From Octopus vulgaris (taxonomy: Eukaryota): DNA of 64,000 bases. The notes under the pieces are model-generated. The model was not told the origin of the DNA, ran no database searches, and was given only the letters and a program-made list of their open reading frames with translations. Below are positions 1-63,096 of the stretch, piece after piece; position 1 is the first letter of the stretch, and the number at the start of each line of letters is the position of its first letter. Where the stretch lies: NCBI GenBank assembly GCA_951406725.2, contig OX597830.1:43090001-43154000 (forward strand). The letters are read 5' to 3'. A program made the position numbers and the translations under genes.

Positions 1-155
1 AATCAAATACTGATGAAATCTCACATTGAATAGAGTATCTTTGTACTACATTGTTAATTATCTTGTAATGTTAACTGTAGATACAGTTATTTTATATAAA
101 TATTAACAAATGATTAATTATCGCTACTTAATTTTTAACATTATTTATCTTTCAG

Positions 156-330
156 ATGCAAGACCTTGGATATTTTATCGTAATTCTGTTTATCTTAATG
201 ATTGCCTATGGCATTGCTTCCCAGTCAATTCTCTATCCAAGTGCACCAGTTTCATATGATTTGTTTAAAAAAGTATTTAGGAAAGCTTATTTTCATATGT
301 ATGGAGAACTTTTTCTTGACGAATATGAAG
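156..330 (+). CDS. TRPM: TRPM channel internal exon (S5 helix and pore helix/filter)
   Basis: tttcag acceptor at 150-155 and GT donor at 331; translates MQDLGYFIVILFILMIAYGIASQSILYP...AYFHMYGELFLDEYE, the TRPM S5-pore signature. Upstream exons lie outside the window. Confidence 0.95.
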
Positions 331-499
331 GTAAACAAATTTGGTATAATTTTTCACTTTCTTTCAAGTCATTTGACAGAAATAATGGCTTGCAAACATT
401 TTTTGAGTATTGTATTTACGTGGAATGTGTTAGCAGAAATTATAAATATAGTCAAGTACATCAACATCAAAATCAAATCATATGACAATCAAATGGAAA

Positions 500-1210: not shown

Positions 1211-1414
1211 AATTCTTTCTACTATAGGTACAAGGGCTGAAATTTGAGGTAGAGGGCTAGCTGATTACATCAATCCCAGTACTCAACTGGTAATTAATTT
1301 ATTGATCCTGAAAGGATGAAAGGCAAAGATGACTTCATTGGAATTTGAATCCAGAACAGGAAGGCTGAAATGCTGCTGAGCATTTTGCTTGCTGTGTTAA
1401 CAATTCTGCCACCT
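1211..1414 (-). mobile_element. tRNA-derived SINE (AAT-tract family)
   Basis: Reverse B-box-like ggaatttgaa and the core gcctttcatcctttc...gatcaataaattaattaccag; many copies in the window. Confidence 0.8.
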
Positions 1415-1435
1415 TTATAATAATAATAATAATTA

Positions 1436-4133
1436 ATTCTTTTTATTGGCCACAAGGGCTGACACACATGATTAGGAAACATAAAGGGACAAAACAGGAC
1501 GAAAGGTTACAAAGGGTTTTGTCTGTTTTTGAAAAAATCCGAGTAAAAACTGTTTAACAACGAAAGATTATAACAATGAAAAAAACTCCCAATAGGGGAG
1601 GCGCTTCGAAAGGTTCCTGGTGGAAAAAACCCCATAAAAGCCAACAGGAGCCTGGTCAAAAGGGGGTAGAGAGCCCCTTTCTCCTTTTATAAAACCTTTT
1701 TCAATCACAGGCGAAACCTGAGAATTGGTCCATTTATACTGGCCATTCTCGCACAATTCACCCACCTTTCAGAAAACTTGCTATCGGACAGCACTCTCCT
1801 CTCTAACCTCATCTTCCTTTTCAAATGAAACTTGAAAAAGTTGATGAGGCCTTGTCCAAAGAGGAAAGTGTCTGACTTTAGCCCTTTCAAACGGGTCCAC
1901 CATACAACCTCTTTAGCCACAGCCACTAGGCACAGGGAAACAGCTTCACCCTCCTTGTTAAAGGAGGTCGGTGGGTCAATCTTCATTATGGATTCGGCCG
2001 ATAGCCAGATCCGTCCTACACGTGACAGTAGCTGTTCGACATAAACCCATTGTTCAGCAATACTAGGGCACTGGACGAGTGCATGCTGAACGGTTTCGTC
2101 ATCCTGGCAACACCTCGGGCAGGCTCGGCTGACGGCACTTCCGTGCCGGTAGAGTTTATCCCGAACAGGCAGAGCCCTTCAGTAGCACTGCCAGGCGAGC
2201 GACCTCTGGAAATTGTCCATCGGCCCCAGCCCGAAAGCCCTCCCGAACAGGCCGCTCAGTTCGTTATCGTCAACCCCTAGAGTTTCCCCGAGAACGTCGT
2301 CGCATTTTTCCTCCACAAACCCTCTATAGAACGCTAGAGTGGAGCTGAAACCGATCGCATTGCCTGCCTGGCGGAGGGTGGAGAGAGCTCGACAGCACTC
2401 GAGGTGCCAAGCGCCCTTTCTCGGTCTACGTTTGATCCAGGTCTGCAGCTCTGTCAAAGAGACGAGCTGTGGAAAGTCACGTCTGACAAAAGACGACCAC
2501 ACCTGATCACCATCTAGGAAACGCTTGAGATGTCGCAGCCTGAGCGCATGTCTGTGCATCTGTAACCACGGCATGCCAAGGCCTCCGTTCAGCGGTCGTT
2601 GACAGCAGATGGATCGCCTGACCAGTGGCACCTGACCCTTCCACAAAATGTCGAAGAGCAGGCGTACCAGCTTGGCCAACCAGTGGTTGGGACAAGGGAC
2701 GACAGTCAAGCGGTAATAGATGATGGATGCGATGTATGCATTCGCCACCTCCACTCGACCTTTCAGGGACAGCTTCCTCTCAGCCCATTTCTGGGTGAGA
2801 CGTGCCACCATGCTCGTCACTTCTTCCCAGTTTTTATCCACCTGGCGGTCCGGACCGAGCCAGACCCCGAGCAGTTTAACGGGCCCGTCTGTCCAGTGCC
2901 CTACGACGCTGTTGGACAGCATGGGCTTGCCTCTCCAGGTGCCCAGTTGCAAGCCCACAGACTTTTCCGCGTTAATCTTTGCCCCTGTCACCGCTTCGTA
3001 CTCGTTTAGTGTCTTGCCAATCAGGCCAATGTGCCTGTGGCTCAACACCATCACGGTGACGTCGTCGGCATAGGCAGACATGCTGTTTCCGCCTCCTAGA
3101 TTGCGCGGGATACCCCTCAAAGCCTCCAACTTGCGCAGTAATGGCTCGAGAGTCAATATGTACAAGAGGGAGTAGAGAGGGCATCTTTGGCGGACCGAAC
3201 GCGAGATGTCGAACGGTTCCGAAAGGTGACCGTTCACCCGTATCACCGAGCAGATGTTGCTGTATAAAGCAGCGATCCACCCGCGGAAGACTGGACCGAA
3301 GCCGGCTGCCAGGTACCAATGGTCGACCCTATCGAAGGCTTTACTCTGATCTAAGTTGATCAAAGCCCCACCCGTGCCAGCGTTGTTACCCACCCTCTCT
3401 ATGATGTAGCGCATGAGATGGAGGTTGTCGTGTATCGACCTGGTCGGCACGGCGCATGTCTGCATCTTGCCGACCAGCTTGTCCATGACAAGCGCCAATC
3501 TCTTGGCTAGCACCTTGGCCAAAATCTTCAACTCTGCATTGATGGGCCGAAAATTCCCTATAACATCCCCCTTGTTTGGGTCCTTTTTTAGCAAAGCCAC
3601 CACCCCTCGACAGACAAAAGCAGGAATTCTCCCGTTTTGCTGCCAGTTGCAGTAGACGTTTGCCAACAGGCCCGCAAACAAGTCTGGCATTGAAGTGTAA
3701 AGCTCATAGGGCAGACCATCCAAACCCGGCGATCTACCTCTCGTGCAACTCTTCATCGCTTCCTCCACTTCCCAGGCAGATATCGGTCCTTCGCAGCACT
3801 CTGCCTCGCTGTCCGAGAGTTGTGGTAGGCTGTCCAGGTACACACCGAAGTCTGCACCATTGTGCGTTCCACCGCTCGTCTCAAACAGTTGAGCAAAGTG
3901 CCGCTGAAACACCGTACACATCTGCTTCAGTTCAGTAACCTCGCGCCCGTTCTGGTCCACCAAAGATCGAATGGTTGCTTTGTTGCCTCGCTTCGCCTCC
4001 GCCACGCGGGCCCATCGAGCGGCTCTAGTCCCCTCCCCGCTTAGCGAATGTGCCTTAGCTCTAACAACGCAGCCTTCGTGTTTGGCGTCAAAGTGTTGGT
4101 TGAGGGCCAACCTTGCCGCCAACACGTCGGTCG
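1436..4133 (-). mobile_element. Tx1/L1-clade non-LTR retrotransposon, 5'-truncated, in TRPM intron
   Basis: RT motifs SPGLDGLP, NFRPI, LDQSKAFDRV, GGLG and AYADD; CCHC finger CPRCCQDDETVQHALVQC; markedly GC-richer than its flanks; probable 9-bp TSD taataatta (1427-1435 and 4134-4142). Confidence 0.92.
1705..4133 (-). pseudogene. LINE ORF2 remnant (RT and zinc finger, no endonuclease)
   Basis: ORF 2179-4125 reads through a single TGA (2179-2181) in frame into ORF 1705-1986; small in-frame deletions near RPI/NAELK. Confidence 0.88.
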
Positions 4134-4244: not shown

Positions 4245-4249
4245 ATAAC

Positions 4250-5140
4250 AATCCTTTCTACTAAAGGCACAAGGCCTGAAATTTGGTGGGAGGGAACTAG
4301 TCAATTACAGAGTTTCACTGGTAATTAATTTATTGACCCTGAAAAGTAAAGACCACCTCGGTGGGATCTGAACTCAGAATGTAGCAGTGGGTGAAATACC
4401 ACAAAGCATTTTGTCCGACATGCTCACTGCTTTTATTATAATAATAATGATGATGATGATGATGGCTTCAAATTTTTCCACAAGGGCAGCCATTTTGGGA
4501 GAGGGGATGTGTTGGTCACATTGCCCCCAGTGTTTCAACTTGTATTTAATTTATTGATCCTGAAACAATGAAAGGCAAAGATGACTCCATTGGAATTTGA
4601 ACTCAGAATGTAGTGATGGGTGAAATACTGCTAAGCATTTAGTCTGGTGTGCTAATGATTCTGCAAGCTCACCGGCTTTATAATAATAATAATAATAATC
4701 CTTTCTACTGTAGGCACAAAGCCTGAAATTTTGGGGAAGGGTTGAAGTTGATTACATTGACCCCCAATGCTCAACTGGTACTTAATTAATTGACTGCAAA
4801 AAGGGGAAAGACAAAGTAGCAGCAACAGACAAAATACCACTAAGCATTTTGCTTGGCATGCTAACGATTCTGCCAGCTTGCTTCTTTTATAATAATAATA
4901 ATAACAATAATAATAAAAATAAAAATCCTTTCTACTGGAAGCACAAGGCCTCAAATTTGTGGGAAGGGATTAAGTCGATTACATCAACCCCTGTGTATAA
5001 CTGGTAGTAATTTTATCGATCCCAGAAGGATGAAAGGCAAAGTTGACCTCAGAGGAATTTGAACTTAGAATGTAATGGCAGATGAAATACTGCTAAGCAT
5101 TTCACCCAGCATGCTAACGATTCTGCTAGCTCACCACCTT
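4250..5140 (-). mobile_element. Array of four AAT-family SINE copies separated by (AAT/GAT)n
   Basis: Copies at about 4250-4432, 4463-4677, 4697-4885 and 4924-5140, all in the same orientation. Confidence 0.85.
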
Positions 5141-7940: not shown

Positions 7941-9763
7941 ACTGATGACCAGGAATACGCATCCAAGTAATTTGCACATCTCTATCACAATAGAACACGA
8001 CACAAAAGGTTTTCTGCTTATCAGTAGGAGTTCATTCCTCCTCCTCCTCCTCCAATGAGTTGGAGGACTGCATTATGTTCCAATGTCTGCTTTATCATGG
8101 TTTCTATGGTTGGATGCTCTTCTTAATGCTAACCACTTCTCTAAATTTACTGAGTGCATCAGTACTAGTGAGGCTGCTATTTAACTCACAAATCTAGAAT
8201 CTTCCTTGAATGACTGGGGCTATAGAAAAGAAAAGCGGCAGCTTTATGCCAGGTAGTGAGAGGTAAAGGTGTGAAAGAAAGGACAGAAATGGGTGTTTGG
8301 TTGCAGAGGAAATACAAGGCTACCTCATGTTATATAAGAATGGATGAGAGTAATCAGGGTAGAGTTGGAAAGTGAGATAAAGATGGAAGTGGGGAGTTGT
8401 CAGGGTTCCATCAAGATACAAGGTAAAGAGAAGAGAGAAGGGAGCACAGAAGAATAGGAAGAGGGGTGGGAAGAGGTAACTAGAATGTATGGGGAGAGAT
8501 GGGATAGTGGTGGGGATAAAGAAAGTGAATAGTGAACAAGGTTGGAGGAGTGGTTGATGATAAATGAGTTGGAGGGAAGATAGGGGAGGGTAAGTGATGT
8601 CGGGCAATAGAGAAAGGACGAAGAGCAGCAGAATAGTAATAATGCTGTAAACAGGAGAATGGTGAAGGAAAGGGAGATGATGGCTAGGTTGCAAGAATGT
8701 GTGGGGAGAGTAAGAGATGTATGGTGATGGGTGGGTCAATAGGAAATGGTTCAGGAGAAATTGAGAGATAATTGGAGGCACAAAATGCTGATCATTATAA
8801 AATGTGAAGAGAGAGTGAGAATTTTAAGAATGAAGGGTGGAAGTCAATAGAAGTAGTTCCTGGTAATGGGAGAAATAACTGGTAAATGACTGGTATTCAG
8901 ACTGAGTTTAAAAAAAAAGAAATTACTTTCCTTCAACAACAGCATAAATATTGATACAAATAATAACATCAACAGTACTACCAAATCTGTCTGTTATCTA
9001 AAATAGAGTAAGTAGTCTTCTCATTTTGCTTTTTCTTTGCATTTGAATCAAGATGTACTCCAGTGCTATAAAAAATAAAAAGTCTGAGAAAATCCTTCTA
9101 CAAGTTATATAAAGTAGTTGAAAAATTCACTGAGATGAATGAAGCTTACACAAACTTAAATTATTTCATGATTAAAGAGCTCCAACAACTGGTATCTTTC
9201 TTTGTCACCAAAATGACTGTTCCTGATTGTTGGGCACAGTACCTCGTAATATTTGTTCTAACCTTCTGCACTTTGAGTTCAGATCCCACCCAGGTCAACT
9301 TTACCTTTCACCATTACTGTGTCACAAAAGAAAATGTACTTATCCAGAGTTGTATAGCTTTTAGAATGTCAGGCAAGTTACCTTGCAGTATTTGTTCTGT
9401 ATTTGCATTCCCCCTGCAAAGCCTGTAACAACATCAAGCTGCATTGGCCCAATTTGGCAATTTTTTCTGTTAATAAACATCAGCAGTATGGATGCATGGG
9501 CAACTGTCCACTCCCCTAAAAATATTTTGCCTGGATTTGGTTATACATGCGAAGATGTATGTTCAATGTTGACTGGCAGAGGCCCTGAAAATATATAGAA
9601 ATATTGATACTATATGTATTGATGCAATATGTATTAAATAGAAATAAATTTAATTTGTTTGTTGTTGATTGATTCTTTTAAAATAGGGTTTAATTTAATA
9701 TTATTGAAAGCTCAAAATGGAAATTAATTCTGTTCTGTAATGTTTTTTGGTTTTTATTTTCAG

Positions 9764-9954
9764 TAATACTTTTCAAAGAGTGCAGGAAAAAAGTCGTCTC
9801 CATTGGTCCTTCCAAAGATATGAACTAATCTTTGAGTTCTCTATCCGCCCTCCTCTGCCTCCTCCTTTCATACTGCTCTGTAACATCTACCAGGCCTGTC
9901 GCTATCTGTGTGAAAAAGCAAGTCGTAAACAACCTAATAGAAAATCTGCATTTT
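9764..9954 (+). CDS. TRPM: TRPM exon (TRP helix, TRP box, proline-rich segment)
   Basis: ttttcag acceptor and gtaaat donor; NTFQRVQEKSRLHWSFQRYELIFEFSIRPPLPPPFILL contains the TRP box WxFQR and the PPLPPPF motif. Confidence 0.95.
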
Positions 9955-10537
9955 GTAAATACCTTTTTCCTTGTTTTATTTCTATTATTTGTGATTTTCC
10001 AAATTTGTACTTCTGCATATTATTGGATACAGTTTTTACTGTTAGCGATATTTTGTATCAATATGCTACACAACGTAGGTATATGCAATGAACTTGTTTG
10101 TTAGTCATAGCAACATCAGTTAGCCATAGCAAAGGTTCCACTAAAATATTTTGGGTGTATTACCATTATAATCCATAGCCACAACAGCCCAATCTTCTTC
10201 ATAACCACTACACTTTATTACCATTCCTTGCATTGCCTCTATAACTCTTTGTGTTGCCATTATGTTTCATAAACTCTTATATATTCAAGTGCATTCCACA
10301 GTCACTACATCCTTACCTGTTTGTTAGCACTAAACAATCTAGTAACTACATCATAATATTTGTACTACCACTCTGTTGATTGCCTGAGACCTCAACCTCT
10401 GATGGTGACATAGGAGTACTTTAGGACTTACAGTTCACCAAACTTTTCTATCTGATGTGGTATTGTATCAGACCTGGGATCCATTTTGTCATGTTAGTCA
10501 TACATCTTTCATTCCTTCTACATAATTTTCCCACCGT

Positions 10538-11083
10538 TGTTCTTTGAAAAACAAGATCTAGTAATCTTTGCAAGACCACAGCTCTTTGAAAAACAAGATC
10601 TAGTAATCTTTGCAAGACCACAGCTCTTTGAAAAACAAGATCTAGTAATCTTTGCAAGACCACAGCTCTTTGAAAAACAAGATCTAGTAATCTTTGCAAG
10701 ACCACAGCTCTTTGAAAAACAAGATCTAGTAATCTTTGCAAGACCACAGTTCTTTGAAAAAGAAGATTTAGTAATCTTTGCAAGACCACAGCTCTTTGAA
10801 AAAGAAGATTTAGTAATCTTTGCAAGACCACAGCTCTTTGAAAAAGAAGATTTAGTAATCTTTGCAAGACCACAGCTCTTTGAAAAACAAGATCTAGTAA
10901 TCTTTGCAAGACCACAGTTCTTTGAAAAAGAAGATTTAGTAATCTTTGCAAGACCACAGTTCTTTGAAAAAGAAGATTTAGTAATCTTTGCAAGACCACA
11001 GTTCTTTGAAAAAGAAGATTTAGTAATCTTTGCAAGACCACAGTTCTTTGAAAAAGAAGATTTAGTAATCTTTGCAAGACCAC
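10538..11083. repeat. 42-bp minisatellite, 13 near-identical units
   Basis: Unit g(c/t)tctttgaaaaa(c/g)aagat(c/t)tagtaatctttgcaagaccaca; only three variable sites. Confidence 0.97.
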
Positions 11084-26893: not shown

Positions 26894-29543
26894 AAGAAAT
26901 TAAAAGAGGAAAATACGCACACTTACATAGTTTTAATATAATTTTTAATATATCGACCAGTTTCGCTGTCGCTATTCATAATATTGTTTTACTTATTTGA
27001 ATATGTATTTTTTCTTAAGAAGAAATTTTGTCCCAAGTTGTGTGTGATGAAATTCACGAGTGAATGACTCCACAAGTAGATAAATAAAGGGAGGTAATTG
27101 GTCATCGTTATTATTGTTATTGTTGTGGGTAAGGGAGATAACTGTTCAGCTTTTGGTAATAGGAGTGGGGATATATATGTACAGACAAAGACAAGTTTCG
27201 AAAACCTTGTTTGGTGAGGGGATTTATGTACAGTGATGTAATCGTGAATTGGAATATGTAAAAAGTTAAAAGTTGGTTATGTGTGCATATTAAGATGTAT
27301 TCTATATTTTTCAATGCAAAAAGTTTCTTTATTTAAACGTTCTTGTGGAGAAATTGTATCTTTGCACTGGTAGAAGGGGAAGACTGTGAAATTTGGTTTG
27401 ATGTTATCTGCACATTTTTCTATATGTTCAGTGAGAGGAATTTCCCTGTATTGTGGGAAACTGATTTGCTCTTTATGTAGAGTAGTTCTCTTTCTCAAAG
27501 CCATACTCGTTTGTCCAATATAGTTGTGTTCGCAACCCGAGCAGGTTATTACATAAATTAGGTTCTCAGAGGCACAAGTGAAACTAGTTTTAATTGTGAA
27601 CCTCTGTCGTTGTTTGAAAAGGAAATCCGAGCCTTTAAGTACATTGGAGCAGGTTCCACAGTTTGGGTGTCCACATTTTTCAACCGTTGCTTTCGTGGTT
27701 GTTTTGTAAAGCTTCGCATTTGTTCGTAGTCTCTTTAACGATTTGTCTTGTTTTTTGCATTTGATGAGTTTGTGTGTTTTCAGGATGTTGTTCATTTTTG
27801 GATCTCTAGTTAGTAAAGGAAGAGTTTGCACAATAGTGTTGAATGCCTCACTGTTTCTGGGTTGTGTGTTGATATAAATAGTAATGTTTTGAGTAGAGGT
27901 GTGGTGTTATGTTTTGTTGTTCTTAGAGTTTTTGTGTCTAATTGTTTGGCACGTTTAATTCCTTCGTCGATAAGTGAGGGTGTGTATTGTCTTTCAGTAA
28001 GCGTTGTTTTGAGGTCTTGAAGACGAAAGTCCCGAGTCGTTCTATCAGACACTATTGTGCAAATCCTTTTTGCCAAATTGAAAGGGGTATTTATTTTGAT
28101 GTGTTTCGGGTGGCATGAGTTAAAGAGAAGATATTGTTTTGAATCAGTTGGTTTATAAATAAATGTCAGTTATGATTTCATTGTTAACTTTTTTATCATG
28201 ATGTCTAAAAATGGGAGTTGTTCTTTGTTGTATTCCATTGTGAATTGAATGTTACTATTTATATCATTTGGTGTTGATTTGAAGTCCAAGAGTTTGTCGA
28301 TATTCTCCTTCCAAATGACAAAGCAGTCATCTAGGTATCTCTTCCAATTTTCTCTTATGTAGAGGTAAAATGGATAACCATATTTCTGAAGTGAAACTTC
28401 ATATAAGGTGAATCCAAAATAACCCATTATCAGGTTCGCAATTACGGGAGCTGCTTTCGTTCCCATCGCAAATCCGTATTTCTGACGATAGTATGTGTCA
28501 TCAAATAGGAAATAATTGTTCTGAAGTATAAATCTGGTTTATGCATTCCGGGAGTACTTCGGGGTACTTTTCCAACATGAATTTAATTGCTTTTATTCCT
28601 TACTCATGGGGGATGTTGGTGTAAAGATTGATAACATCGAGGGTAACCAATATTGCCTCTTCATTAATTGTTTTTGGTAGGTGTTCTAGCATGTCTAAAT
28701 TATCTCTAATGAAACTTTTGATGTATTTAAGCAAGGGTTTCAGTAGAATGTCTAGAAAATTGCTTAGGCGGTGGGTTTCACAGGCTGGCCCAGCTACAAT
28801 GGGTCTTAAAGTTAAGTCTTCTGGCGTATGGATATTTATAAATTTGCCTGGTGATTGTTTGCAGGCTTCATTGATTATCTTGCTCTTGTGTATTTTAGGA
28901 AGGCCATAAAAAAGACTGGGTTTACATTTGAAGTTCGTGATGTTTCTTTTTCTGTCAGGCCTTTTCCATGTAGAAGAATTAAGGATGCAAGATTTTTCAT
29001 TGTTTTTTGTTGTTTATAGTTTATAACTTTTTCGTAGAAGGCCTCATTTTCTAGTATGAATAGTACTAGTTTTTTATAGTGTTCTGTGTCCATCAGAACT
29101 ACAGCACTTCCTTTGTTTGCTTCTTTAATTGTCAGGTCTTTGTCGTTTTGTAGTTCAGTTAGATTTTTCCATTCTAGATTGTTGAGGTTCGGATTAATTT
29201 TTCGTTTATTGGATGTGTGGGGGAAATTTTGGATATGGTTGCAGACGTCATCCAGTGTTTTATTCCTACCCTTATGTGGAAGGTAATTACTTCTGTTTTT
29301 GACTAGTGATTCATCTTCGTTGTCGTAGTCAGTTAGTGCTTCTGCGAGTCGTAGTTTTCTGCAGAATTCCGAGATATTGTCTTTAATTTCATTATGGTTA
29401 GCTGTTGGTGGGGTTGGAGTGAATTTTAAACCTTTTGCATAGTATATTGATTTTTGTTATAGACAGAGTTTTCCTTGATAAGTTAATCACTTTGGGTTTC
29501 TCCTGTACGTTTTGTTCCAACATGTGTCCCTATTTCTCTCCTT

Positions 29544-30348: not shown

Positions 30349-31968
30349 TAGTTGCGGCCAAAATGTTCAGAACGGCATTGTTTTCGTCAGAAAAGTAAGT
30401 ATAAGTTTTTATCAAAGTAGTTTTATATTCTATAATTTTCACAGACAATAAATACAATATTAATTGTTATTGTCTGAGATTTTGGTGTACAATAATACAA
30501 AAATTATGGATGATTTAGTGATTTACTGAAAAACCCATGGCGGCCAAAATGATCAGAACGGTTGAAAAAATAACAAAATAATCAAAAATGACAGAGAATA
30601 CTGGAATTATTTAATATTTAGTGTGAAGCCCTTTAGCTTCAATCACAATCTGACATCTTCGACTGCGTGAGGAAATTAAATTTTCAATTTCTTGCTGGGT
30701 GATCTTATTCCATTCTTCCTGAAGGGCATTCCATAATTGCTCAGTTGTTTTAGGATTTCTGGCTTTCGAACGTTCTCCTAGAATATTCCATACATTTTCA
30801 ATAGGATTGAGATCTGGGCTTTGAGCAGGCCAATCCATAACAGTAACCTTTTCAGCCTTGAGGAAGTTCATGACCACCTTAGCCTTGTGACATGGGGCAT
30901 TGTCCTGCATGAATATGGGTGGTCGCTTAGTTGAATTTCTCAGCACAGGCAAGACATGATCTTTTACAAGTTGTTTATACACTCCTGCATTTACATTTAC
31001 ATGTAATCGCACCAAAGGGCCCACACCATCTCCAGATATCATCCCCCAAACCATGACACTTCCTCCACCGAATTTAACACTAGTCTTAAGGCATTTAGGC
31101 GACAATTTTTCACCTACTTTTCTACGAACGTACCTTTTCCCATCTGAGCCAAATAACATAAACTTAGATTCATCACTGAAATGCACCGTTTGCCATTTTT
31201 CTTGAGACCACAACACATGTTCGGTTGCAAAGGTAAGACGACACTTTTTATTCTTGGAGCTGATCAGTGGCTTCACTGTAGGTGCTCTTGCTTGTAGGTC
31301 ATGTTCAACTAAACGACGAGACACAATTTTTCGAGATAAAGTTTTCTTCAATACAATGCTCATTTTCCGAGAAACACCAGCAGCAGTTTTAAATCTGTCC
31401 TTTTTAACCAACTTTACCATAGTACGATCTTCTCTCTTGGTCGTTTTTCTTGGCCTACCTGTAAACTTTCTTGCTTCACACGAACCACAATCATCGTAGA
31501 CCTTAAGAATACCGTGTACAACACTTTCTGACTTGTTAACAATCTTTGCAATAGATCCAATACTTAAATTATCCTTCCTTCGAAGCTTAATAATCTGCTG
31601 ACGAATTGGTAACGGATTAAGAGGCATTATATTAACAAAGTACACTGCAAATATTCTTACTAATGTTTAGTAAACAAACCGTCACGTAAACAAATTCAAA
31701 ACATTAGAGATTGCCGGTTAAATATACTAAAACACGGAGTAAAAGCAACCGTTCTGATCATTTTGGCCGCCATGGGTTTTGCAGTAAATCACTAAATCAT
31801 CCATAACTTTGTATTATCCTCTCAAATTACACCAAAATCTCAGGCAGTAACAAATTATATCGTATTTATTGTCTGTGAAACTTTTAGAATATAAAACAAC
31901 TTTGATAAAAACTTATACCTACTTTTCTGACGAAAACAATGCCGTTCTGAACACTTTGGCCGCAACTG
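30349..31968 (-). mobile_element. Full-length Tc1-family DNA transposon, IR/DR type
   Basis: ~215-220-bp TIRs (30349-30564 and 31746-31968), each with two copies of gcggccaaa(a/g)tg(t/a)tcagaacgg; TA flanks; single transposase ORF. Confidence 0.96.
30611..31627 (-). CDS. Tc1 transposase (DD34E), 338 aa from ATG at 31627
   Basis: HTH N-terminus, GRPRK, FSDESKF, FMQDNAPCH and WPAQSPDLNPIE (34 residues between the second D and E), C-terminal KGLHTKY; no internal stop. Confidence 0.95.
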   Translation of the reverse strand: MPLNPLPIRQQIIKLRRKDNLSIGSIAKIVNKSESVVHGILKVYDDCGSCEARKFTGRPRKTTKREDRTMVKLVKKDRFKTAAGVSRKMSIVLKKTLSRKIVSRRLVEHDLQARAPTVKPLISSKNKKCRLTFATEHVLWSQEKWQTVHFSDESKFMLFGSDGKRYVRRKVGEKLSPKCLKTSVKFGGGSVMVWGMISGDGVGPLVRLHVNVNAGVYKQLVKDHVLPVLRNSTKRPPIFMQDNAPCHKAKVVMNFLKAEKVTVMDWPAQSPDLNPIENVWNILGERSKARNPKTTEQLWNALQEEWNKITQQEIENLISSRSRRCQIVIEAKGLHTKY

Positions 31969-46033: not shown

Positions 46034-47130
46034 CATTTCTAAATCTCTCAGAGAGATTTATGCAGTAGCAGCACAATAAAATGATGGCATGTTGTCAACT
46101 TAATGTGACAGTCCCATGAAAGGGAAGAATGCTACTGTTATTTAGCCCTAGGAAACATCGTTTCCTGTTGGACCTGACACATTTCCTGTGTCCTTATGGG
46201 AAACTTTGAACATGTTTCAGTGTTATTTAGATCTCAACAATGAAATATAGTCTAACCATCATTGATGAGCAAAGAAGTATTTGGAAACAGTGAGGGAGCC
46301 TCTTTTATTGACTCCAGAGGGATGAAAAGCAAAGTTGACCTGAACAGGATTTCAACCTAGAACATAAAGAACCATAACAAAATACTACAAGTATCTTCAA
46401 CTGTTTATGTCAATCGACATCCTTACATAATGGTTACAATCGTGATTTCTACCACAGACATAAAACCAATTATCTAGATGGAGCAGAGTCAGTGGATCAT
46501 ATCAACTTCAGTAAATCACTGGTACTTTATGTCATCAACCCTAGAAAGATGAAATACAAGGTTGACCATGCTGTAATTTGAACCCAGTACTGGAACAAAT
46601 GCTTGCAAAATATTTCGCCCAACACTCTACCAATTCTACCACCTTCAAGGCCTTTGTCATTATTGAATGTCTACTTTTCCATGCTGACATGGGTCAGATT
46701 TAATTTGTTGAGGCAGATTTACTACATTTTGATGCTCTCTCAGTCACCAACCCTTCTCTTTTTCCAAGCAAATTAATATTTCCTCTGGTCATCTATAATA
46801 ATCCTTTCTACTATAAGCACAAGGTCCAGAATTTAGGGGACAGTGGGGCTGGTGGATTACACCAATCCCTAGTGCATAACTGGTACTCATTTTATTGACC
46901 ATCAAGGATGAAAGGTAAAACCAACCTCAGCCCAATTTGAACTCAGAATTTAGAGACAAACAAAATACCAATAAACATTTTGTCTAGCATGCTCACAATT
47001 CTGCCAGCTCACTGCATTTTGGCCTTATATAACAACAATAATAATAATGATAACAACAATAATAATAATGATGAAGATGATAATGATAATAATAATAATA
47101 ATAATAATAATATTAATAATAATGAAGATG

Positions 47131-47175
<45 letters not shown>

Positions 47176-47671
47176 TACTTGGCAAGAAATGGGAACAAAA
47201 ACAAAAGAAGAAAATCTCATAATAGCAATAAAGCTTTTTCGTTTTTGGCACAAGGCCAGCAATTTTGAATGGAAGGGAGGAGTTGGGGACGGGGAGAAGC
47301 CCAGTGCTTAACAAGTATTCATTTTATTGCCTCCACCCCCAACCACAAAACAACAAATGGCAAAGTTGACCTTAGTGGAATTTGAACTTGGAATGTAAAG
47401 CCAGAAGAAATGATGTGAAGCATATTGCCAACAGCAGCAACAACTTCAACAACAATGATTTCTATGCCTGCTTTTCCATTTTTTCCAAGATGCTGGCATC
47501 GAATGGACAGGGCCAGTCCCTGATTCTGGAATTGAATGGACAGGGCCATTCAGTTTTTATTTGTAATAACTGCCATTCCAGACAATTTCACTTGTCTGGG
47601 ATCACTTGAAAATTGCATTTTTGTCATTCTTTTCTCTTGTTGGATGTTCTTACAATCATCACATTTGTTCC

Positions 47672-48112
47672 TCATCATCATCATCGTCGTTTAACGTTTG
47701 CTTTCTATGCTGGCATGGGTTGGATGGCAATATTTCTACAGCTGGATGCCCTACCTAACGCCAGCCACTCCGAGAGTGTAGTGGGTGCTTTTATGTGCCA
47801 CTGACACGAGGCCCAGTCAGGCAGTACTGGCAATGACCATGCTCAAAAGGTGTTGTTTACATGCCACCTGCATGGGTGCCAGTCTGGCAGCACTGGCAAC
47901 AACCACACTTGGATGTTGTTTTTCACATGCCACCGGCACATGTGCCAGTATGGTGATGCTGGCAATGATCACGCTCAAATGGTGCTTTTTACGTGCCACC
48001 ATCATGGGAGCCAGTTAGCATCTCTGGCTACGGTCTCGCTCAGATGGTGCTTTTAACGTTTCACTGGCACAAGTGCCAATCAGGCAGTACTGTCATCAGC
48101 CACGTCAGCGAC
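47672..48112 (-). mobile_element. RTE-type 3'-end repeat with ~60-bp internal subrepeats
   Basis: Same family as 500-823; repeated gtgcttttacgtgccacc units. Confidence 0.75.
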
Positions 48113-49799
48113 TTTGATTTTGATTTCATTTAGGAATAAATTTCTATTTAAAACTAAGTCTTCTAAATTGATTCACACCTTACAAGCACCTGTTACCAAC
48201 AGTGGAGAGGGGCATGAAAGTGAAAACCCTAACCTCTCAGACAGGATTTCAAATGAGAAAGTGAAAAAGAAATAAATAATAAACATATTGACCAAACATT
48301 GCAAAACATTTCAGTCTGGCAGCATCTATTGAGAATAAGGTTTTCTAATAGGAGCAGAGGGCCACAAAGTTAGGGGTTGGGGTCAACTGAATCAAACTCC
48401 AGTACATAATTACCACTTTCTTTATCAAGCCCCAGCAGAAAAAAAAGTTAGGCCATGTGGGATTTGAACATAGAATATGAGACATTAATTAAATGTTGCA
48501 AAGCATTCTTTAATGCTATAAGTTCTACCATCCAACACTGATTTTTGAGGGAGACTGGGGGTAGTCTATTATCTCAGCCCCAGTACATCACTGGTACTTT
48601 ATTTTATCAACCTTGTAGAGGTGAAAGGTATGAGAATTGAACTCATAACACAAAGATCCATAGCTGAATACAGCAAAATATTTTGTTTGATACTCTTAAC
48701 ACTTCTGCCACTCCATCACCCTTGGTAATAATTCACCTCTCTGATGATGATGATGATGAGGAGGAGGAGGAGGAGGATAATGATGGTGATGAGTACTATA
48801 GGCACAAGGCCTGAAGTTTCAGGGTGAGGGCTAGTCAGTTATATCTACCCCAGTGCTCAGCATCGACTCCCACCCAAAAGGATGAAAGGCAAAGTCAACC
48901 GCAGCAGAATTTGAACTCAGAACGTAAAGACAGACAAAATGCTACAAAGCATGTTGGGCAAAATGCTAACCATTCTGCAGACTGGCAGCCTCAATAAGAA
49001 TGATGATTCTAGACATAAGCAGAAAGACATACGTTTTAAGGTGTGAGTGGTGGTGGAGGTGGTGATGGTGGGGTGTAGTTAATTAGGCTGGCACCAGAAT
49101 CTGATTAGTACTTAACATTACTAGCCCCAGAAGTATGAATTACAAAGTTGTCCCTGGCAAGATTTGAACACACAACATAAACTGTATATTTCAAAAGATG
49201 TGTTTTTTTGTTTTGTTCTACCAATTCTGCAAATTCTTGGATTGTAATAACAGTAAATTTGTTACATAAGCAGAAGAGCAGAAATTGTGGAGCGAGAGCA
49301 GTTGATTATATAGACCTCCCCCATCCCCGCACCCAATTCTTGATTAGAAACTTATTTGAACAACACTGGAAGGATGAAAGGCAAAACCAACCTTAACTGG
49401 ATTTGAACTCAGAACATAAAAGATCATAACTTAATACTGCAAGGCACTCTGTCTGACAATCTAAGGACTCCACCGGAGAATAAAAATATAATCGCCACCA
49501 GCTTAATGATAAATAATAATGATTTCAAATTTTGGCACAAGGCCAGAAATTTCATGGGAGATGGAGTAAGTCAATTACACTGACCTCAGTACTCAGCTGG
49601 TACTTATTTTATTGACACTGAAAGGATGAAAGGCAAAGCTGACTTCAATAGAATTTGAACTCAGAATTTAAGGAAGGACGAAATGCCACTAAGCATTTCA
49701 CCTGGTATGCTATGGATTCTGCCAGCTTATTGCCTTTTGATGGTTAATAAAATAATTATAATAATAATAATAATAATAATAATGATAATAATAATAATA

Positions 49800-49955
49800 G
49801 TGTGACCATGAGATAGAGAATAGGATGCCAGACATAGTCTTAATTAAGACAGAAAGCAAACTAAGCTGGATCATAAATATAGCATGTTGCCTTAGTTCAC
49901 TGGTAGTGACCAGCTGATACCGTAGTACATCTCCAGGGTTAGAAGTTGTACAAAG
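49800..49955 (+). mobile_element. RLE-LINE (R4/Dong/NeSL-like) endonuclease fragment within an (AAT)n tract
   Basis: CDHEIENRMPDIVLIKTESKLSWIINIAC matches the RLE D..I..RPDIV....K...IIDIA motif. Confidence 0.7.
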
Positions 49956-50269
49956 ATAATGATGATAATGTTAATGATGATAATAATAATAATAATAATC
50001 CTTTCTACTAGAAGCACAAGGCCTCAAATTTGGGGGCAGGGATTAAGTCAATTACATCGACCCCAGTGTGTAACTGGTACTAATTTTATCGACCCCGAAA
50101 GGATGAAAGGCAAAGTCAACCTCAGCGGAATTTGAACTCAGAATGTAACGACAGATGAAATACCGCTAAGCATTTCACCCAGCATGCTAACGATTCTGCC
50201 AAATAATAATAATAATAGTAATAATAATAATGATGATAATGATAAAGATTGCTTTTGCTCACTTACACT

Positions 50270-50437
50270 CACAAGTGTAGCTAGAGTGTGTGCCACCTGG
50301 GGTGGCCCTTCCGTTTGCTGCCCCCAGACCCCACAAAAAACACATATTGTCTACAGCAGACCCAAAAGTGCTGCCCCTTTATAAGTGCTACCTGGGGTTG
50401 ACCACCCCTACCCACCCACACCCTAGCTGTGCTAGTG
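50270..50437. mobile_element. hAT-type MITE
   Basis: Perfect 8-bp TSD cttacact (50262-50269 and 50438-50445); TIRs cacaagtgtagctag / ctagctgtgctagtg. Confidence 0.82.
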
Positions 50438-50889
50438 CTTACACTTGAATCCAGTACAAAATATTTTCACAATTTTCTTAATGCTAAAACGATGAATAGA
50501 TAAGGTAATCCTTGAAGTAAAATGCAGAGGGACAAAACTGAATGATAATATTGTGTAGATATTGGTCCAACATTCTACTTACTGTCTCACACACCTCCAG
50601 AGCCATCCTTCTGATAAAACCAATTTTTCCTCTATCATTTTTTTTTTTGTTTTTTATCAAGACTGAAAGATTTTAAGTTATAGGGGAGAGGACTAGTCAA
50701 TTACATCGACCCCAGTCTTTTGCTGGTACTTAATTTATTGACCCTAAAAGGATGAAAGGCAAAGTCGACCTCATTGGAATTTGAACTCAGAGTTCAAATT
50801 CCAATGACAAAATACTGCTAAGCATTTCACCCGGCATGCTAATGATTTGGCCAGTTCGCCACCTTAATAATAATGATAATAATAATAAT

Positions 50890-50920
<31 letters not shown>

Positions 50921-51023
50921 TATTATTATTATTATTATTATTATTATCTCTATTATTATCATTATTTCTACTATTATTTCTAATAACAATTATTATTATT
51001 ATTTCTATGCCTTAATAATAATG

Positions 51024-51078
<55 letters not shown>

Positions 51079-51891
51079 TTATAATAATAATAGTAATAAT
51101 GATGATGATGATGATGGCTTCAAGTTTTGGCACCAGGCCAGCAATTTTGGGAGAGGGATATAGTTGAATACATCTACCCCAGTGCTTGACTGGTATTTAT
51201 TTTATTGATCTCGAAAGGATTAAAGGCAAAGTTGACCACAATGGAATTTAAACTCTGAATGTGAAGATGGATGAAATGCTGGTAAGCCATTTTGTCTGGC
51301 ATGCCAACGATTTTCTCTGGCATATAATGATTTTTGCCGGCTCACCATGTTATATAATAAAAATAATAATAATAACAATTAGATTATGAATCTCATTTGT
51401 AGAGAAAGTTCTTTGTCTACAATTGTGATAGAAAATTTGGAGATGATTTGTAAGAGAACTACTGAGGATTTTTATACAGCATCAAAAAAGAAGGAACCAA
51501 AAAAAAAAACAAATGTACTTTTTGTATTAATTGTTAAATGAAAAAAATATGGCAGAAAACAGATATCAATGTTAAATATAGAATAATAATGAAAAAAACA
51601 GATATAACAATATAACATGGAAATACTTTTTTTTGATTGTTATAAAAATGTAATAACATGATTAACTAATTTGAATGTCAGGAAGAATTAACAAATGGCA
51701 TGAAAAACAATGGAGAAAAACTTTAAAAAAATAAAAGAGAGACACAACTGAAGATATATATATACATGTGTGTGTGTGTGTGTGTGTGTTTGTGTGTGTG
51801 TGCGTGCGTGTGTGTCTGTCTGTCTGTATGTATGTATATATGTATATATATATATAAATATATGTGTGCATATATATGTATGTGTGTATAC

Positions 51892-54086: not shown

Positions 54087-55717
54087 TTAAACGATTATAT
54101 TTTTGAAAATCAAAGTTTGTTGCTCTGTCGTGTTGTAGGATTAGATTCTTGACCGATTTATTAAAATTTGATATTGGACGTTTCTAATGCATAAAAAGGC
54201 ATTGATATGTTGGTGTATTTAAATATGGCTATTATCTAAAAGAACAGAGCCAGCACCAATAAATTGGTAAACTGGACATTAGAAATAGATCTATAACAGT
54301 TTCAGCAATGACTCTTCAGTTGTTCAAACAGGTAACTGAATTAGTTATATAAGTGGCTGAGTACTCCACAAACATGTGCACCTTTAATGTAATCCTTAAA
54401 CAGAATCAGCATGGTGCTGTATGTGATAAGTTTGGATTTTTGAATTACAAGTACAATCCATGTTATGAACTTGAGCAGAGCTTCTCTCGACACCGGTTCT
54501 CTTACAAAACTCTGGTCAACTCAAGTGTTAAAATAATACATTCCTATGTTGCCTTGCATTGGGCTTGAACTTGATACCTCTAGGAATAGATTAAAAAGAT
54601 CTTAATTGTTTGGCCATGCTACTAAAATTAAACAGCTCTGTATCAACATGCCAAAAAGGTGAGACATGTGTCAACAATTTTGGTGGTTATAAAGAGAAGT
54701 AATGCCTATACATGTTGTACTTCATACTGTCCATGATAGATATAAATTATTTTTCATTAATTTTGTTGTACTTCAGGCCTGGTACTCATTGAATCAACCA
54801 GTTATCACATTTTAATCTTATAAAATGTTTCTCAAGCTCAGTCATGACACAAGAAACTAGCAGCCAAACTGATATTTCCACTAAATACTGTATAATGTTA
54901 ATGGAGTTTGACACAGAAGCTGTTAGTAACTAAGGTGAGAGAAACCCTTCACTGCTGTCAAAAAACACACCAATCTCTGGTGCAACTACAAACCAAATAA
55001 GAGAAAACATTGCTAACCAATGCCAGAGCTTGTTCAGTATAAAATTCTGAGTTTGGAATTATAAATATATATATATTTTACATGAATGAAGACCAACTAT
55101 TGTTTGAGCAATTCTTTACATGGGCACACGTCTATACAGAGAGGCATAACAAGAAAGAGAGAAAGAGAGAGAGAGAGAGTAGGTAGAGTAGTCTTCTCTC
55201 CTTCTGGACCCAGGAGTGAAAGGATGTAAAATTTCTTCTGGTTTATCATGTTGGTTACTTAAAAGGTGGAAGTGCTAAAAAGTCTTTGACCCCAGACACT
55301 GAAAATGCTTGCTATGCCATAGTCTACATCCATCCTTTCACACACACATGCACACATACACACATATTTATAAATGTGTTTACACACTGCCACCAATAAA
55401 CACATCCATATGCATTTAGATACATATATACAGTTATATACAATCAAGTCTTTCTATGACTATATACAGTTACACTTCAACTCTTTCTCCCTTTCCCTCA
55501 CTCACTCTCACTCTCACTCTGTCTTTCTCTTCTGCACACACTCACTCATTACATTTACATACATTCATATATACACATAATTGTTCAAAAGTTAGAATCA
55601 CCCATTTCATTATTTGAGAATTTCTTTTTTCTATTAATTATATAAGAATAAGTCATTTTGCTGTGTTCAAATTTCTGCAGACACAAACATTAAAAAAAAA
55701 AAAATTAAATCATGGTT

Positions 55718-56011
55718 TCATACAAAATTTTCTCCACTTCTCGGCTTTGCTAGTCTTGTTCCATCTGATGTTGCATGTATCACCGATTTTCTACCATTTG
55801 TACTTTCAGATGCATTGTCTGTGACATCCACAAATGCTGTTCTAGAACTAATGATTCCTTCCATACCGATTGGTGCTGTTTCTGGTTCATATCTGAACAT
55901 TCCAAAGCGCCGGGTGAGAGCTATTCCTGGCAGCCAAACTATCGGCAGCAAGACCAGGAACCCAGCAATGAGGCTAGCAAAGAGAGGGTACTGCATATCA
56001 TACAAAGTGGC
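55718..56011 (-). CDS. SLC6: SLC6 amino-acid transporter, last coding exon (TM12 and C-tail)
   Basis: ctttttcag acceptor; ATLYDMQYPLFASLIAGFLVLLPIVWLPGIAL...GENFV-TGA matches the YPxW/F-TM12 pattern of SLC6. Confidence 0.92.
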   Translation of the reverse strand, partial: ATLYDMQYPLFASLIAGFLVLLPIVWLPGIALTRRFGMFRYEPETAPIGMEGIISSRTAFVDVTDNASESTNGRKSVIHATSDGTRLAKPRSGENFV

Positions 56012-56234
56012 CTGAAAAAGATGAAACAAAAAATATTTGTTAAAACCTGAGACAGATTTCACAGCAATGCCATAAGAGGAATATACAGGGTGGGCCAAAA
56101 ATCACGTACAAAATAAGTTCAATACACTCTGGAATTGTCAAAGACATGGTTTGATTTTTTAAAAATTGAATGAAACAAATAAAATAATGACAAATACACA
56201 TGTACATAATGAACAAAAGGAATAATAACAATAA

Positions 56235-60854: not shown

Positions 60855-61179
60855 ATATATTTGTGTATCTGTGTTTGTCCCCACTGCCATTGCTTGACAA
60901 CCGCTGTTGGTGTGTTTACATCCCCACAACTTAGCATCTATGGTACAACAATGTTTCCTGGAACTGAGTAGAATTTGTGCTTTCTTGCTTTTGAAAGAGA
61001 CAAGATAGATATGATCCCATTGAAGGATATTTTGGGGACTCTTTTTAAAGCATCAGCATGGATCTGGGGCGTGGTACAAAAGTTGTGAGTGGATGATGCA
61101 CAGCTGAGGGTGGGGTGAGGTTAAGAAATAAAAGATAATGCTTAAAAATATATAAGAAAAATAAATAAAAGAAACCCAC

Positions 61180-61342
61180 CTCGTTTTTGTTGTAAGCTTT
61201 GTAAGTAACAGGATCGATAAACTTCATTATAATGGTGGACACAAGAAGAATGAGAATAAGAGCAGGAGCAATAAACTTCCACAAGACACGCCAAATTATA
61301 TTTGGTCTCTTCCCAATCATTCCATATACATCATTACAAAAG
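61180..61342 (-). CDS. SLC6: SLC6 transporter exon (TM11)
   Basis: ttccacag acceptor and gtgggt donor; FCNDVYGMIGKRPNIIWRVLWKFIAPALILILL...YKAYNKNE contains the FxxDxxxMxGxxP..W..W motif. Confidence 0.95.
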
Positions 61343-63096
61343 CTGTGGAAGAAAACAAAAACCAAAAAACATCAAAGTCATTATCAGAAAGTAATTCTCA
61401 CACACACACACACACACACACACACAATTATATTACATTACATAATATTTCGAAGTTTATTTCTCGCTTGCAAGGAAAATATTTGTTTTTGTTTTTCTTA
61501 CATTCTACCCCACCCCTCAAACAACCCTACAAAACTGAAATTATCAATGTGTTTAAGGAATTTTTGTGAATCTTTCCCATCTTATTTAGAAGTAATTATT
61601 ACTTATTTAGAGGTAATGATTATGCAGCAAATTTTCTTTCATGTATCGGTAATTCAAAAACCTATAAACCTGCAACAACCACCAGATACCATTTGTTGCA
61701 GATAATAATGCCGTTTGCACATAAACAATCCCCCACACCCTTTGAAGTTATTGATTTTGTCATTACCCCACCATTTTATGTTTTTCCCGAAAAAGGTTTT
61801 GTAAATTGATGAAGCAAAAAATGTTAACAATTTATGTTAACCTATTTGTAACCAAATTTCTTTGTTTCAATTAATTTTGGAAATAACAAAGAATTTAATT
61901 AAATAATTTTGTTAACAGGCTGGTCCCTGGAACATAAATTAACATAAATTTTAATGGAAAGCTTTAATTTAAAATAGGAAATTTGTGTCCTAGAACAAGG
62001 GACAGTTTGAGTGGTAGTGGGTGGGGTGGGTGGGGGCTTGGTATGAAAAGGTTTCAACCATTGTTGTGTTTGCTACTAAAGTAGCTTTGTACAGGGATGA
62101 ACTGTGTCCAGGAAAACATTATTAACCCTGCTGAACAGATATTTAGGATTTAAACCCACCTAAATTTAATACAGCAACATATTTTAGCGACCAAATTACT
62201 GAAGACTACTCACGACTCACATATCTACATTCACATAATTTAATTTTCAAGTTTGCTGAATCCATAAATGTAATCAAACATCATGATATCTTGAGATAAC
62301 AATAATTCTATTTGCTAAATGTGTTTCTATCTTAATCCTGTCTCTACAGAAACCAGAAACATCAACCAAAAATTTAATTCTCTCAACAGAAAGCAGTTTA
62401 ATGTACCAAGCTATCTTTTGTTGAGGAATTTCATGCTTGAACCTTTTTTCTTTGTTGAGATATGTGAAGTTTATTGAGGCGACTAGGCTTGCAAAAATAC
62501 TAAATCTATTTCTTGGTGGATATTTCACATAATTACTGGAATAACCATAAAATTTAATTTGGCAGTTAAAAGCTTTAATTTCATGATGTTCTCAGGTGAA
62601 GAAGCTAGATTATTTAATTGTTGACTGCAACAAAAGTATAAACATGGCACTTAAGTATATTTAAAATGATATTTATAATAAATTTTAATCTAGTAGGATT
62701 AAGTTGTTAAATTTTATTATACTTAAGACCGTATAATGATTTATTAAATTAGAATTTCTTCGATTTTTTTTAGGCATGTACCCGATGAAATTTCAGTAAA
62801 AAGACTTTTGGACTGACAATAATTCAACAACAATCTCAATCCTTACTGAAAATAAGAACAATGATAACAGGGAGAATAACAAGTGTATTTTAGCGATAAA
62901 CAACACTTCTCTTTCTTTGTACTCCGAAAACCTAGTCACCATGAATTACCTCCCTTTTACTAGTTTCAAGGAATTATCTCATTTTTTTTATTTATTTTTC
63001 ATTTAATTGCTTCCAATAATTAGATGTGTTCGTTTTAAATGGCACATTTTAATAACAAATGTTGATTTTAAATGTAATTTTTCATGTCATACTTAC

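What the first reader, a model, noticed from the sequence alone, without database searches (positions are those of the whole stretch)
1211..1462. Tx1-clade LINE and the abundant AAT-family SINE share a 3' end and target: candidate microsatellite-targeting LINE/SINE pair
Seen: the LINE 3' terminus (+ strand 1435-1462, aattctttttattggccacaagggctga) aligns with the 3' terminus of the neighbouring SINE (1211-1240, aattctttctactataggtacaagggctga; other copies read aatcctttctactataggcacaaggcctga). Both sit in the same orientation and end in (ATT)n inside AAT tracts. Known: many SINEs borrow the 3' tail of their partner LINE, and Tx1-clade LINEs are often sequence- or microsatellite-specific. Inference: this Tx1 family mobilises the SINE and steers it into (AAT)n, which would explain the SINE arrays. 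I do not know of this pairing being described, but could not search.
Basis: partly seen in the sequence, partly recalled or inferred. Interest (0 to 1): 0.72.

Follow-up and report, generated by a model that had tools for sequence, protein, structure and literature searches.

The report
SINE borrowing Tx1 retrotransposon hairpin tails
In this genome (likely an octopus) a family of long jumping genes sits in ATT repeats, and a very common short repeat ends in the same small predicted hairpin and favours ATT sites, so the short repeat likely hitch-hikes on this group of jumping genes, though probably on older relatives rather than on the young family lying next to it.

Summary
Observation confirmed, interpretation partly. 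Both elements lie on the minus strand. The LINE 3' end is a family trait, not a SINE remnant: 30 of 30 copies end the same way and run into (ATT)n, and 30 of 30 full-length 5' ends follow an ATT run. SINE tails a/b/c favour ATT too, but loosely: 1,048 of 2,674 exact tail-b copies run into three ATT, against 0.8% background. What is shared is a 4-bp stem with a CUUGU loop, kept through compensatory changes across Tx1-like families and four SINE tails. It is a group-wide signal, not a mark of this family. This family is young (0-4% diverged, against about 18% for SINE b/c), its stem differs from tails a/b/c, and a sister element matches them better. Two private mutations inflate the neighbour's match. 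A fourth SINE tail (d) matches other Tx1-like families over about 50 nt and avoids ATT (1 of 44), so tail and landing site change together. The exact partner of tails a/b/c was not found. This scan noted the same idea before on other DNA; I found it in none of the papers searched.

The parts
1435..4133 (-). 5'-truncated Tx1-like LINE copy (last 2.7 kb of a ~5.9-kb element)
   Evidence: 5' junction maps to position 3153 of full-length copy L070; 1.1% from the family consensus over the last 465 nt
2182..4133 (-). ORF2 part with reverse transcriptase; an in-frame stop at 2179-2181 separates it from the C-terminal part
   Evidence: Pfam RVT_1 E=3.6e-19
1705..2178 (-). ORF2 C-terminus, zinc-binding domain
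   Evidence: Pfam zf-RVT E=2e-7
1435..1462 (-). LINE 3' terminus: predicted hairpin (3-bp stem GCC/GGC, loop CUUGU), then AATAAA
   Evidence: present in 30 of 30 copies; pair table
1416..1434 (-). (ATT)n run between the LINE 3' end and the SINE head; the landing site
   Evidence: sequence; 3-44 ATT units follow all 30 copies
1211..1415 (-). Old SINE copy, tail type b: tRNA-like head, central body, Tx1-type tail; its hairpin is broken by private mutations
   Evidence: 76% to the SINE consensus
4246..5130 (-). Head-to-tail array of four SINE copies (tails b, c, b, a) separated by ATT/ATC runs, upstream of the LINE
46303..51312 (-). Larger cluster of SINE copies and fragments, all in one orientation
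   Evidence: one search lists 11 hits in this range, all on the minus strand

Best explanation
The SINE likely borrows the reverse transcriptase and endonuclease of Tx1-like LINEs by carrying a copy of their predicted 3' hairpin, and its a/b/c subfamilies were likely spread by ATT-preferring members of that group, of which the LINE in this window is a young, ATT-specific member. Shown: the family-wide LINE end, ATT runs on both sides of the LINE, the SINE's ATT bias, 9-17-nt target duplications, the covarying stem, and the change of landing site with tail type. Inferred: ORF2 binds the hairpin in trans; the APE endonuclease nicks the AAT strand, so the flank begins with ATT and orientation is fixed; each insertion leaves ATT at both ends, which is re-used and builds head-to-tail arrays; the SINE swapped tails as Tx1-like families rose and fell.
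For: LINE 3' ends: 30 of 30 (one is the window copy) share the terminus and run into 3-44 ATT; the query held no ATT run. 5' ends: 30 of 30 follow an ATT run (14 scored by script, 16 with variant 5' ends read by eye). Full-length copy has ORF1 zf-CCHC (E=4e-4, just under cut-off) and an APE domain (E=2e-11). Hairpin on 14 distinct rows from 8 families: 87.5% of cells paired, 3 of 4 pairs change on both sides, covariation 0.549, 0 of 500 shuffles, best slid register 0.269. Per-copy pairing is 0.74-0.96 in each family. SINE b: 1,048 of 2,674 exact tails run into ATTATTATT. SINE a: 37 of the first 100 listed do, and 79 begin with ATT (hand count). In 100 evenly spaced 10-kb stretches, three or more ATT follow a/b 11 of 49, c 8 of 38, d 1 of 44; background 0.78%. 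Duplications at non-repeat sites begin ATT/ATA, so the ATT comes from the target. Tail d aligns with sister families at scores 52-58, 0 of 2000 shuffles, and lands at GGTA/TATA-like sites. Older Tx1-like families ending at ATT/ATC exist. Four non-Tx1 tails give no match in 16 comparisons, best 181 of 2000.
Against: No autonomous LINE carrying tail a, b or c was found: none among 193 tail hits in 1.3 Mb (24 without the SINE core were read by eye), none among the first 30 exact tail-b sites, and 0 genome-wide matches to a hybrid pattern. The best match to a/b/c (L140 family) shows no ORF2 hit in 20 loci and does not sit in ATT. Similarity for a/b/c covers only about 25 nt; tail c does not match the window family (540 of 2000). 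The hairpin is small (3-5 bp); it is not the minimum-energy fold of the window family's tail; families were collected with motifs that include the stem, and the rows are related, so the shuffle figure is not a probability. The protein tree does not resolve whether ATT-preferring families form one lineage. No functional test exists.
Confidence: 0.68

Rival explanations
1. This exact LINE family is the partner of the ATT-associated SINEs.
For: Same ATT polarity; its terminal AAAGAATT resembles tail b; score 24 with a and b (29 and 4 of 2000); one copy at 84% identity shows that the family has older members; SINE a copies are 4-14% diverged and could overlap in age.
Against: The 30 nearest copies are 0-4.3% diverged (a sample biased to young copies) against medians near 18% for SINE a/b pooled and for c. 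Stem pair 2 is C-G in this family and G-C in a/b/c; pair 4 is unpaired. The L140 family scores higher with a, b and c.
Confidence: 0.13
2. Any Tx1-like ORF2 in the genome can carry any SINE tail; the hairpin is only a shared relic and ATT bias reflects whichever family was most active.
For: The motif is common to all families.
Against: Landing site tracks tail type (a/b/c 21-22% against d 2%). The sister family that sits in (ATCT)n is abundant, yet ATCT runs were not seen after SINE tails in the census listing. Age differences between tails could mimic this pattern.
Confidence: 0.1
3. The SINE does not target ATT; its own ATT end seeds microsatellites after insertion.
For: Most copies lie outside arrays; downstream runs are commoner than upstream ones (12 against 9 of 24, 6 against 1 of 20 rows, one of them a script artefact). 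Some later expansion is likely.
Against: Duplications at unique sites begin with ATT and match the upstream flank with no extra repeats between; 9 of 24 copies also have three or more ATT upstream of the head, and 21 of 30 SINE a copies do (the query held ATT flanks, so biased).
Confidence: 0.06
4. R4/Dong-like LINEs, which share the same microsatellite, carry the SINE.
For: They lie in the same tracts; Dong-R4 is the most numerous recently active LINE group in an octopus annotation (PMC13282606); Dong sits in TAA repeats (PMC3774820, passage).
Against: They end in (AAT)n on their own strand, opposite to the SINE and the Tx1-like LINE, and their tails do not match. The R4/Dong label rests on my recall of the motif; Pfam gave only zf-RVT.
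Confidence: 0.03

Closest known systems
Kibi, Koshi and crocodilian (TTCC)n/(TTTC)n Tx1 families (PMC4494074, passages read)
   Same: Tx1-type LINEs specific for a microsatellite
   Different: Target here is (ATT)n, with sister families in (ATCT)n and one copy in (TC)n; no SINE passenger is described for them in the passages read
SINEU / Tx1-Mar of crocodilians (PMC4494074, passages)
   Same: SINE assigned to Tx1 by shared target; SINE less strict than LINE (13-90%)
   Different: SINEU has an snRNA head and a poly(A) tail, and no LINE sharing the 3' end of SINEU-1 was found; here a tRNA-like SINE shares a structured 3' end with the LINEs
Stringent-type pairs: UnaL2 and ZfL2 (L2), CR1, RTE, Tad1 (PMC4176376, passages)
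   Same: Shared 3' stem-loop with conserved loop and variable stem
   Different: LINE belongs to the L1/Tx1 group, where SINEs with LINE tails are rare (3 found, PMC3747384, passages)
HAL1 half-L1 elements (name seen only in a reference list; details recalled)
   Same: The L140 family shows no ORF2 and keeps a Tx1-type 3' end
   Different: It sits at a fixed site in another repeat, not in ATT

Membership tests
L1/Tx1-group LINE | ORF1 with CCHC knuckle; ORF2 with APE, RT and C-terminal zinc-binding domain | tested here: met
   database homologues have the same domains
Tx1 clade | RT groups with named Tx1 references in a tree | not tested
   No named Tx1 sequence was on hand; the 19 hits bear no Tx1 name. 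The tree only shows this genome's families as one group (support 0.995)
Tx1 clade | Target-sequence preference (over 20% of flanks, Kojima's criterion) | tested here: met
   30 of 30 at each end
tRNA-derived SINE | Short, multicopy, target duplications | tested here: met
   about 220 nt; 123 core hits in 600 kb; duplications of 9-17 nt
tRNA-derived SINE | tRNA-related head with A and B boxes | tested here: inconclusive
   A- and B-box-like words seen by eye in the consensus (box consensus recalled); no tRNA hit by ARAGORN in the window or Rfam in 3 loci
Stringent LINE/SINE pair | Shared 3' sequence and stem-loop | tested here: met
   group level; strongest for tail d
Stringent LINE/SINE pair | One specific autonomous partner with a matching tail and age (this family for tails a/b/c) | tested here: not met
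Stringent LINE/SINE pair | Tail needed for mobilisation in trans | not testable with these tools
   needs a cell assay
MetaSINE | 66-bp Meta-domain after the head | tested here: inconclusive
   Bivalve MetaSINE sequences in the supplement (part 1 of 4 read) look unlike this body, and three body words are absent from the file; the Meta consensus is in a figure that is not held
Octopus OK / OR1 / OR2 SINEs (Ohshima and Okada 1994) | Sequence identity to the published families | not testable with these tools
   paper seen only as a citation

The most novel reading that the evidence does not exclude
One SINE body has serially captured 3' tails from a radiation of target-specific Tx1 LINEs, and each tail swap changed its landing site (a/b/c to ATT; d to GGTA/TATA-like sites including its own head). 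Tx1 would then be a stringent, hairpin-recognising LINE group, and this LINE/SINE system a main organiser of the (AAT)n-associated repeat stacks of octopus genomes.
Probability: 0.5. Interest if true: 0.68.

Novelty: new variant of a known kind. Interest (0 to 1): 0.5.

Why it matters
SINEs make up about 12% of an annotated octopus genome (PMC13282606), and I found no partner LINE named for them in the papers searched. SINEs with L1-group tails are rare, and the one Tx1-assigned SINE I found in print (SINEU) shares no 3' end with its LINE. A shared, covarying hairpin would make 3'-end recognition in Tx1 directly testable, and sister families with different targets offer a natural series for how an APE endonuclease gains specificity.

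Tried and rejected
LINE landed in a SINE remnant: rejected. R4/Dong-like or RTE-type partner: rejected by polarity and tail. MetaSINE label from my memory: not borne out. Search for an autonomous LINE with tail a/b/c: negative; no direct search remained after the 12 own-genome searches. Empty site from public contigs: no joint across the LINE among the rows shown, and 141 rows were not shown. No RNA holder listed. Tree of ORF2 C-termini: inner branches unresolved; rows under 90 aligned residues were left out. Target duplication of the LINE itself cannot be delimited inside ATT runs. One row (L108, negative length) is a script artefact, so counts come, where 21 tail-d hits at dimer junctions were set aside. 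The even census stopped at 1.0 Mb of a planned 1.2 Mb. Literature: eight searches answered; none listed a paper on a Tx1-tailed octopus SINE or an (ATT)n-specific Tx1. Repbase, the 1994 octopus SINE paper, Kojima and Fujiwara 2004 and the 2015 octopus genome paper (not held) were not seen and may bear on novelty, as may supplements of PMC13282606 and PMC4494074, which I did not open.

Full report
Setting. The window lies in a 2.8-Gb genome, likely an octopus (inferred from repeat content and size). The LINE reads on the minus strand from 4133 to 1435: RT (Pfam E=3.6e-19) and zf-RVT (E=2e-7), split by one in-frame stop. An ATT run (1416-1434) follows, then a SINE (1415-1211) in the same orientation.

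Observation. The quoted strings are there. They align with 23 identities in 30 columns, and 0 of 2000 shuffles score as high. Two of the neighbour's three private changes in this stretch happen to match the LINE, so the family-level match is weaker (score 24, 4 of 2000). Three of seven other window SINEs match above chance; four do not.

The LINE family. All 30 fetched copies (the best of 40 scored; one is the window's) share the terminus and run into 3-44 ATT units. The first refutation test, a SINE remnant, is therefore passed. Full-length copies are about 5.9 kb with an ORF1 zinc knuckle and an APE domain. All 30 fetched 5' ends follow an ATT run (14 by script, 16 by eye). Junctions of truncated copies are mixed, with many but not all in ATT. 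The label Tx1 rests on architecture and target specificity; no tree with named references was made.

The SINE. It is about 220 nt long and very common: 123 core hits in 60 evenly spaced 10-kb stretches, of which 46 were tail d, 34 b, 23 c, 2 a, 15 unclassified and 3 at an edge. One body thus carries four tails. Genome-wide, 1,048 of 2,674 exact tail-b sites run into ATTATTATT; for tail a, 37 of the first 100 of 242 do (hand count). In 100 even stretches three or more ATT follow a/b in 11 of 49, c in 8 of 38 and d in 1 of 44, against 0.78% background. At unique sites, duplications of 9-17 nt begin with ATT or ATA, so the ATT belongs to the target. The bias is real but much looser than the LINE's, as reported for SINEU against Tx1-Mar (PMC4494074, passages). 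Tail d instead lands at GGTA/TATA-like sites, and 21 of its 65 hits join a second SINE half at one site in the head.

What is shared. The genome holds several related families: one in (ATCT)n, one without a repeat target (L138), older ones ending at ATT/ATC (L078, L096, L308), and an ORF2-less one at a fixed site in another repeat (L140). Those whose ends were aligned finish in a short stem, a CUUGU-type loop and AATAAA. On rows from four LINE-type and four SINE families, 87.5% of cells pair and three of four pairs change on both sides; covariation is 0.549 against 0.208 shuffled and at most 0.269 slid. The rows are related and were picked by motif, so this supports the stem but gives no probability. 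Tail d matches the ATCT, L138 and L140 families over about 50 nt (scores 52-58), which is the clearest proof that the SINE tail is of this origin. Tails of R4/Dong-like and RTE-type elements do not match, and the R4/Dong-like elements face the other way in the same tracts.

Why not this family. Its stem has C-G at pair 2 where a/b/c have G-C, and lacks pair 4. L140 scores higher with a, b and c (27, 33, 25 against 24, 24, 17). The nearest copies are 0-4.3% diverged, while SINE a/b pooled and c are near 18% and d 6%; the LINE sample is biased to young copies, and pooling a with b inflates that figure. No autonomous LINE with tail a, b or c turned up.

Mechanism. Inferred: ORF2 of a Tx1-like LINE binds the hairpin on SINE RNA, as shown for L2 elements (PMC4176376, passages); its endonuclease nicks the AAT strand; reverse transcription starts there. 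Each insertion leaves ATT on both sides in fixed polarity, so later insertions stack head to tail: 7 of 30 LINE ends have a SINE within 400 nt, all in the same orientation. Tail replacement let one SINE follow successive LINE families and changed its landing site. Confidence 0.68; this exact family as partner 0.13.

Known and new. Microsatellite-specific Tx1 and Tx1-assigned SINEs are known (PMC4494074). SINEU-1 shares no 3' end with any LINE, and only three SINEs with L1-clade tails were listed (PMC3747384, passages). Eight searches listed no description of this pairing; Repbase and several key papers were not available. Papers seen: PMC13282606 parts 1-2 of 3; PMC4824008 passages, section 9, supplement part 1 of 4; PMC4758252, PMC3531059, PMC8967140, PMC5786205, PMC3774820 passages. 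Earlier notes of this scan state the same idea for other DNA; they are not evidence, and one mentioned the hairpin before I folded the tails. Verdict: real, a new variant of a known kind, interest 0.5.

Noticed in passing
L085:4724-5120, L083, L096, L109: Dimeric SINEs (tail-d unit joined to a second half at one site in the head) flanked by one target duplication, so the dimer moved as a unit.
   Followed up: partly
L141-L160: ORF2-less Tx1-tailed family, often stacked, ending next to the same motif of another repeat; best match to SINE tails a/b/c.
   Followed up: partly
L241-L255, L125, L126, L081: Sister Tx1-like family whose 3' ends run into (ATCT)n in 14 of 15 fetched loci by the motif scan; one further copy (L291) ends in (TC)n.
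   Followed up: partly
L166, L169: Two L138-family copies end just before a frame that reads like the start of histone H3 (recalled), a possible gene-cluster target.
   Followed up: no
L214, L219, L220, L228, L234-L236, L068: Tandem stacks of the ATT-specific LINE: one copy's 3' end, a short ATT run, then the next copy's 5' end.
   Followed up: no
window 1209-63855: 19 of 20 SINE hits lie on one strand; by clusters it is about 6 of 7, not significant.
   Followed up: partly
window 30611-31666 (-): Open 351-aa Tc1/mariner-type transposase frame (Pfam DDE_3, HTH_Tnp_Tc3_2).
   Followed up: partly
window 27277-29456 (-): Broken Penelope-like element with a weak GIY-YIG hit (E=0.0014).
   Followed up: partly
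window 61045-61371 (-), 55638-56101: Exons of a sodium:neurotransmitter symporter gene (Pfam SNF E=2.8e-7 for the first).
   Followed up: partly
window 132-485, 9072-10091 (+): Likely exons of a TRPM-like channel (by recall; no Pfam hit); the LINE and SINEs would lie in its intron.
   Followed up: no
window 10541-11083: 42-bp tandem repeat, 12.9 copies, 98% alike, open in three frames.
   Followed up: no
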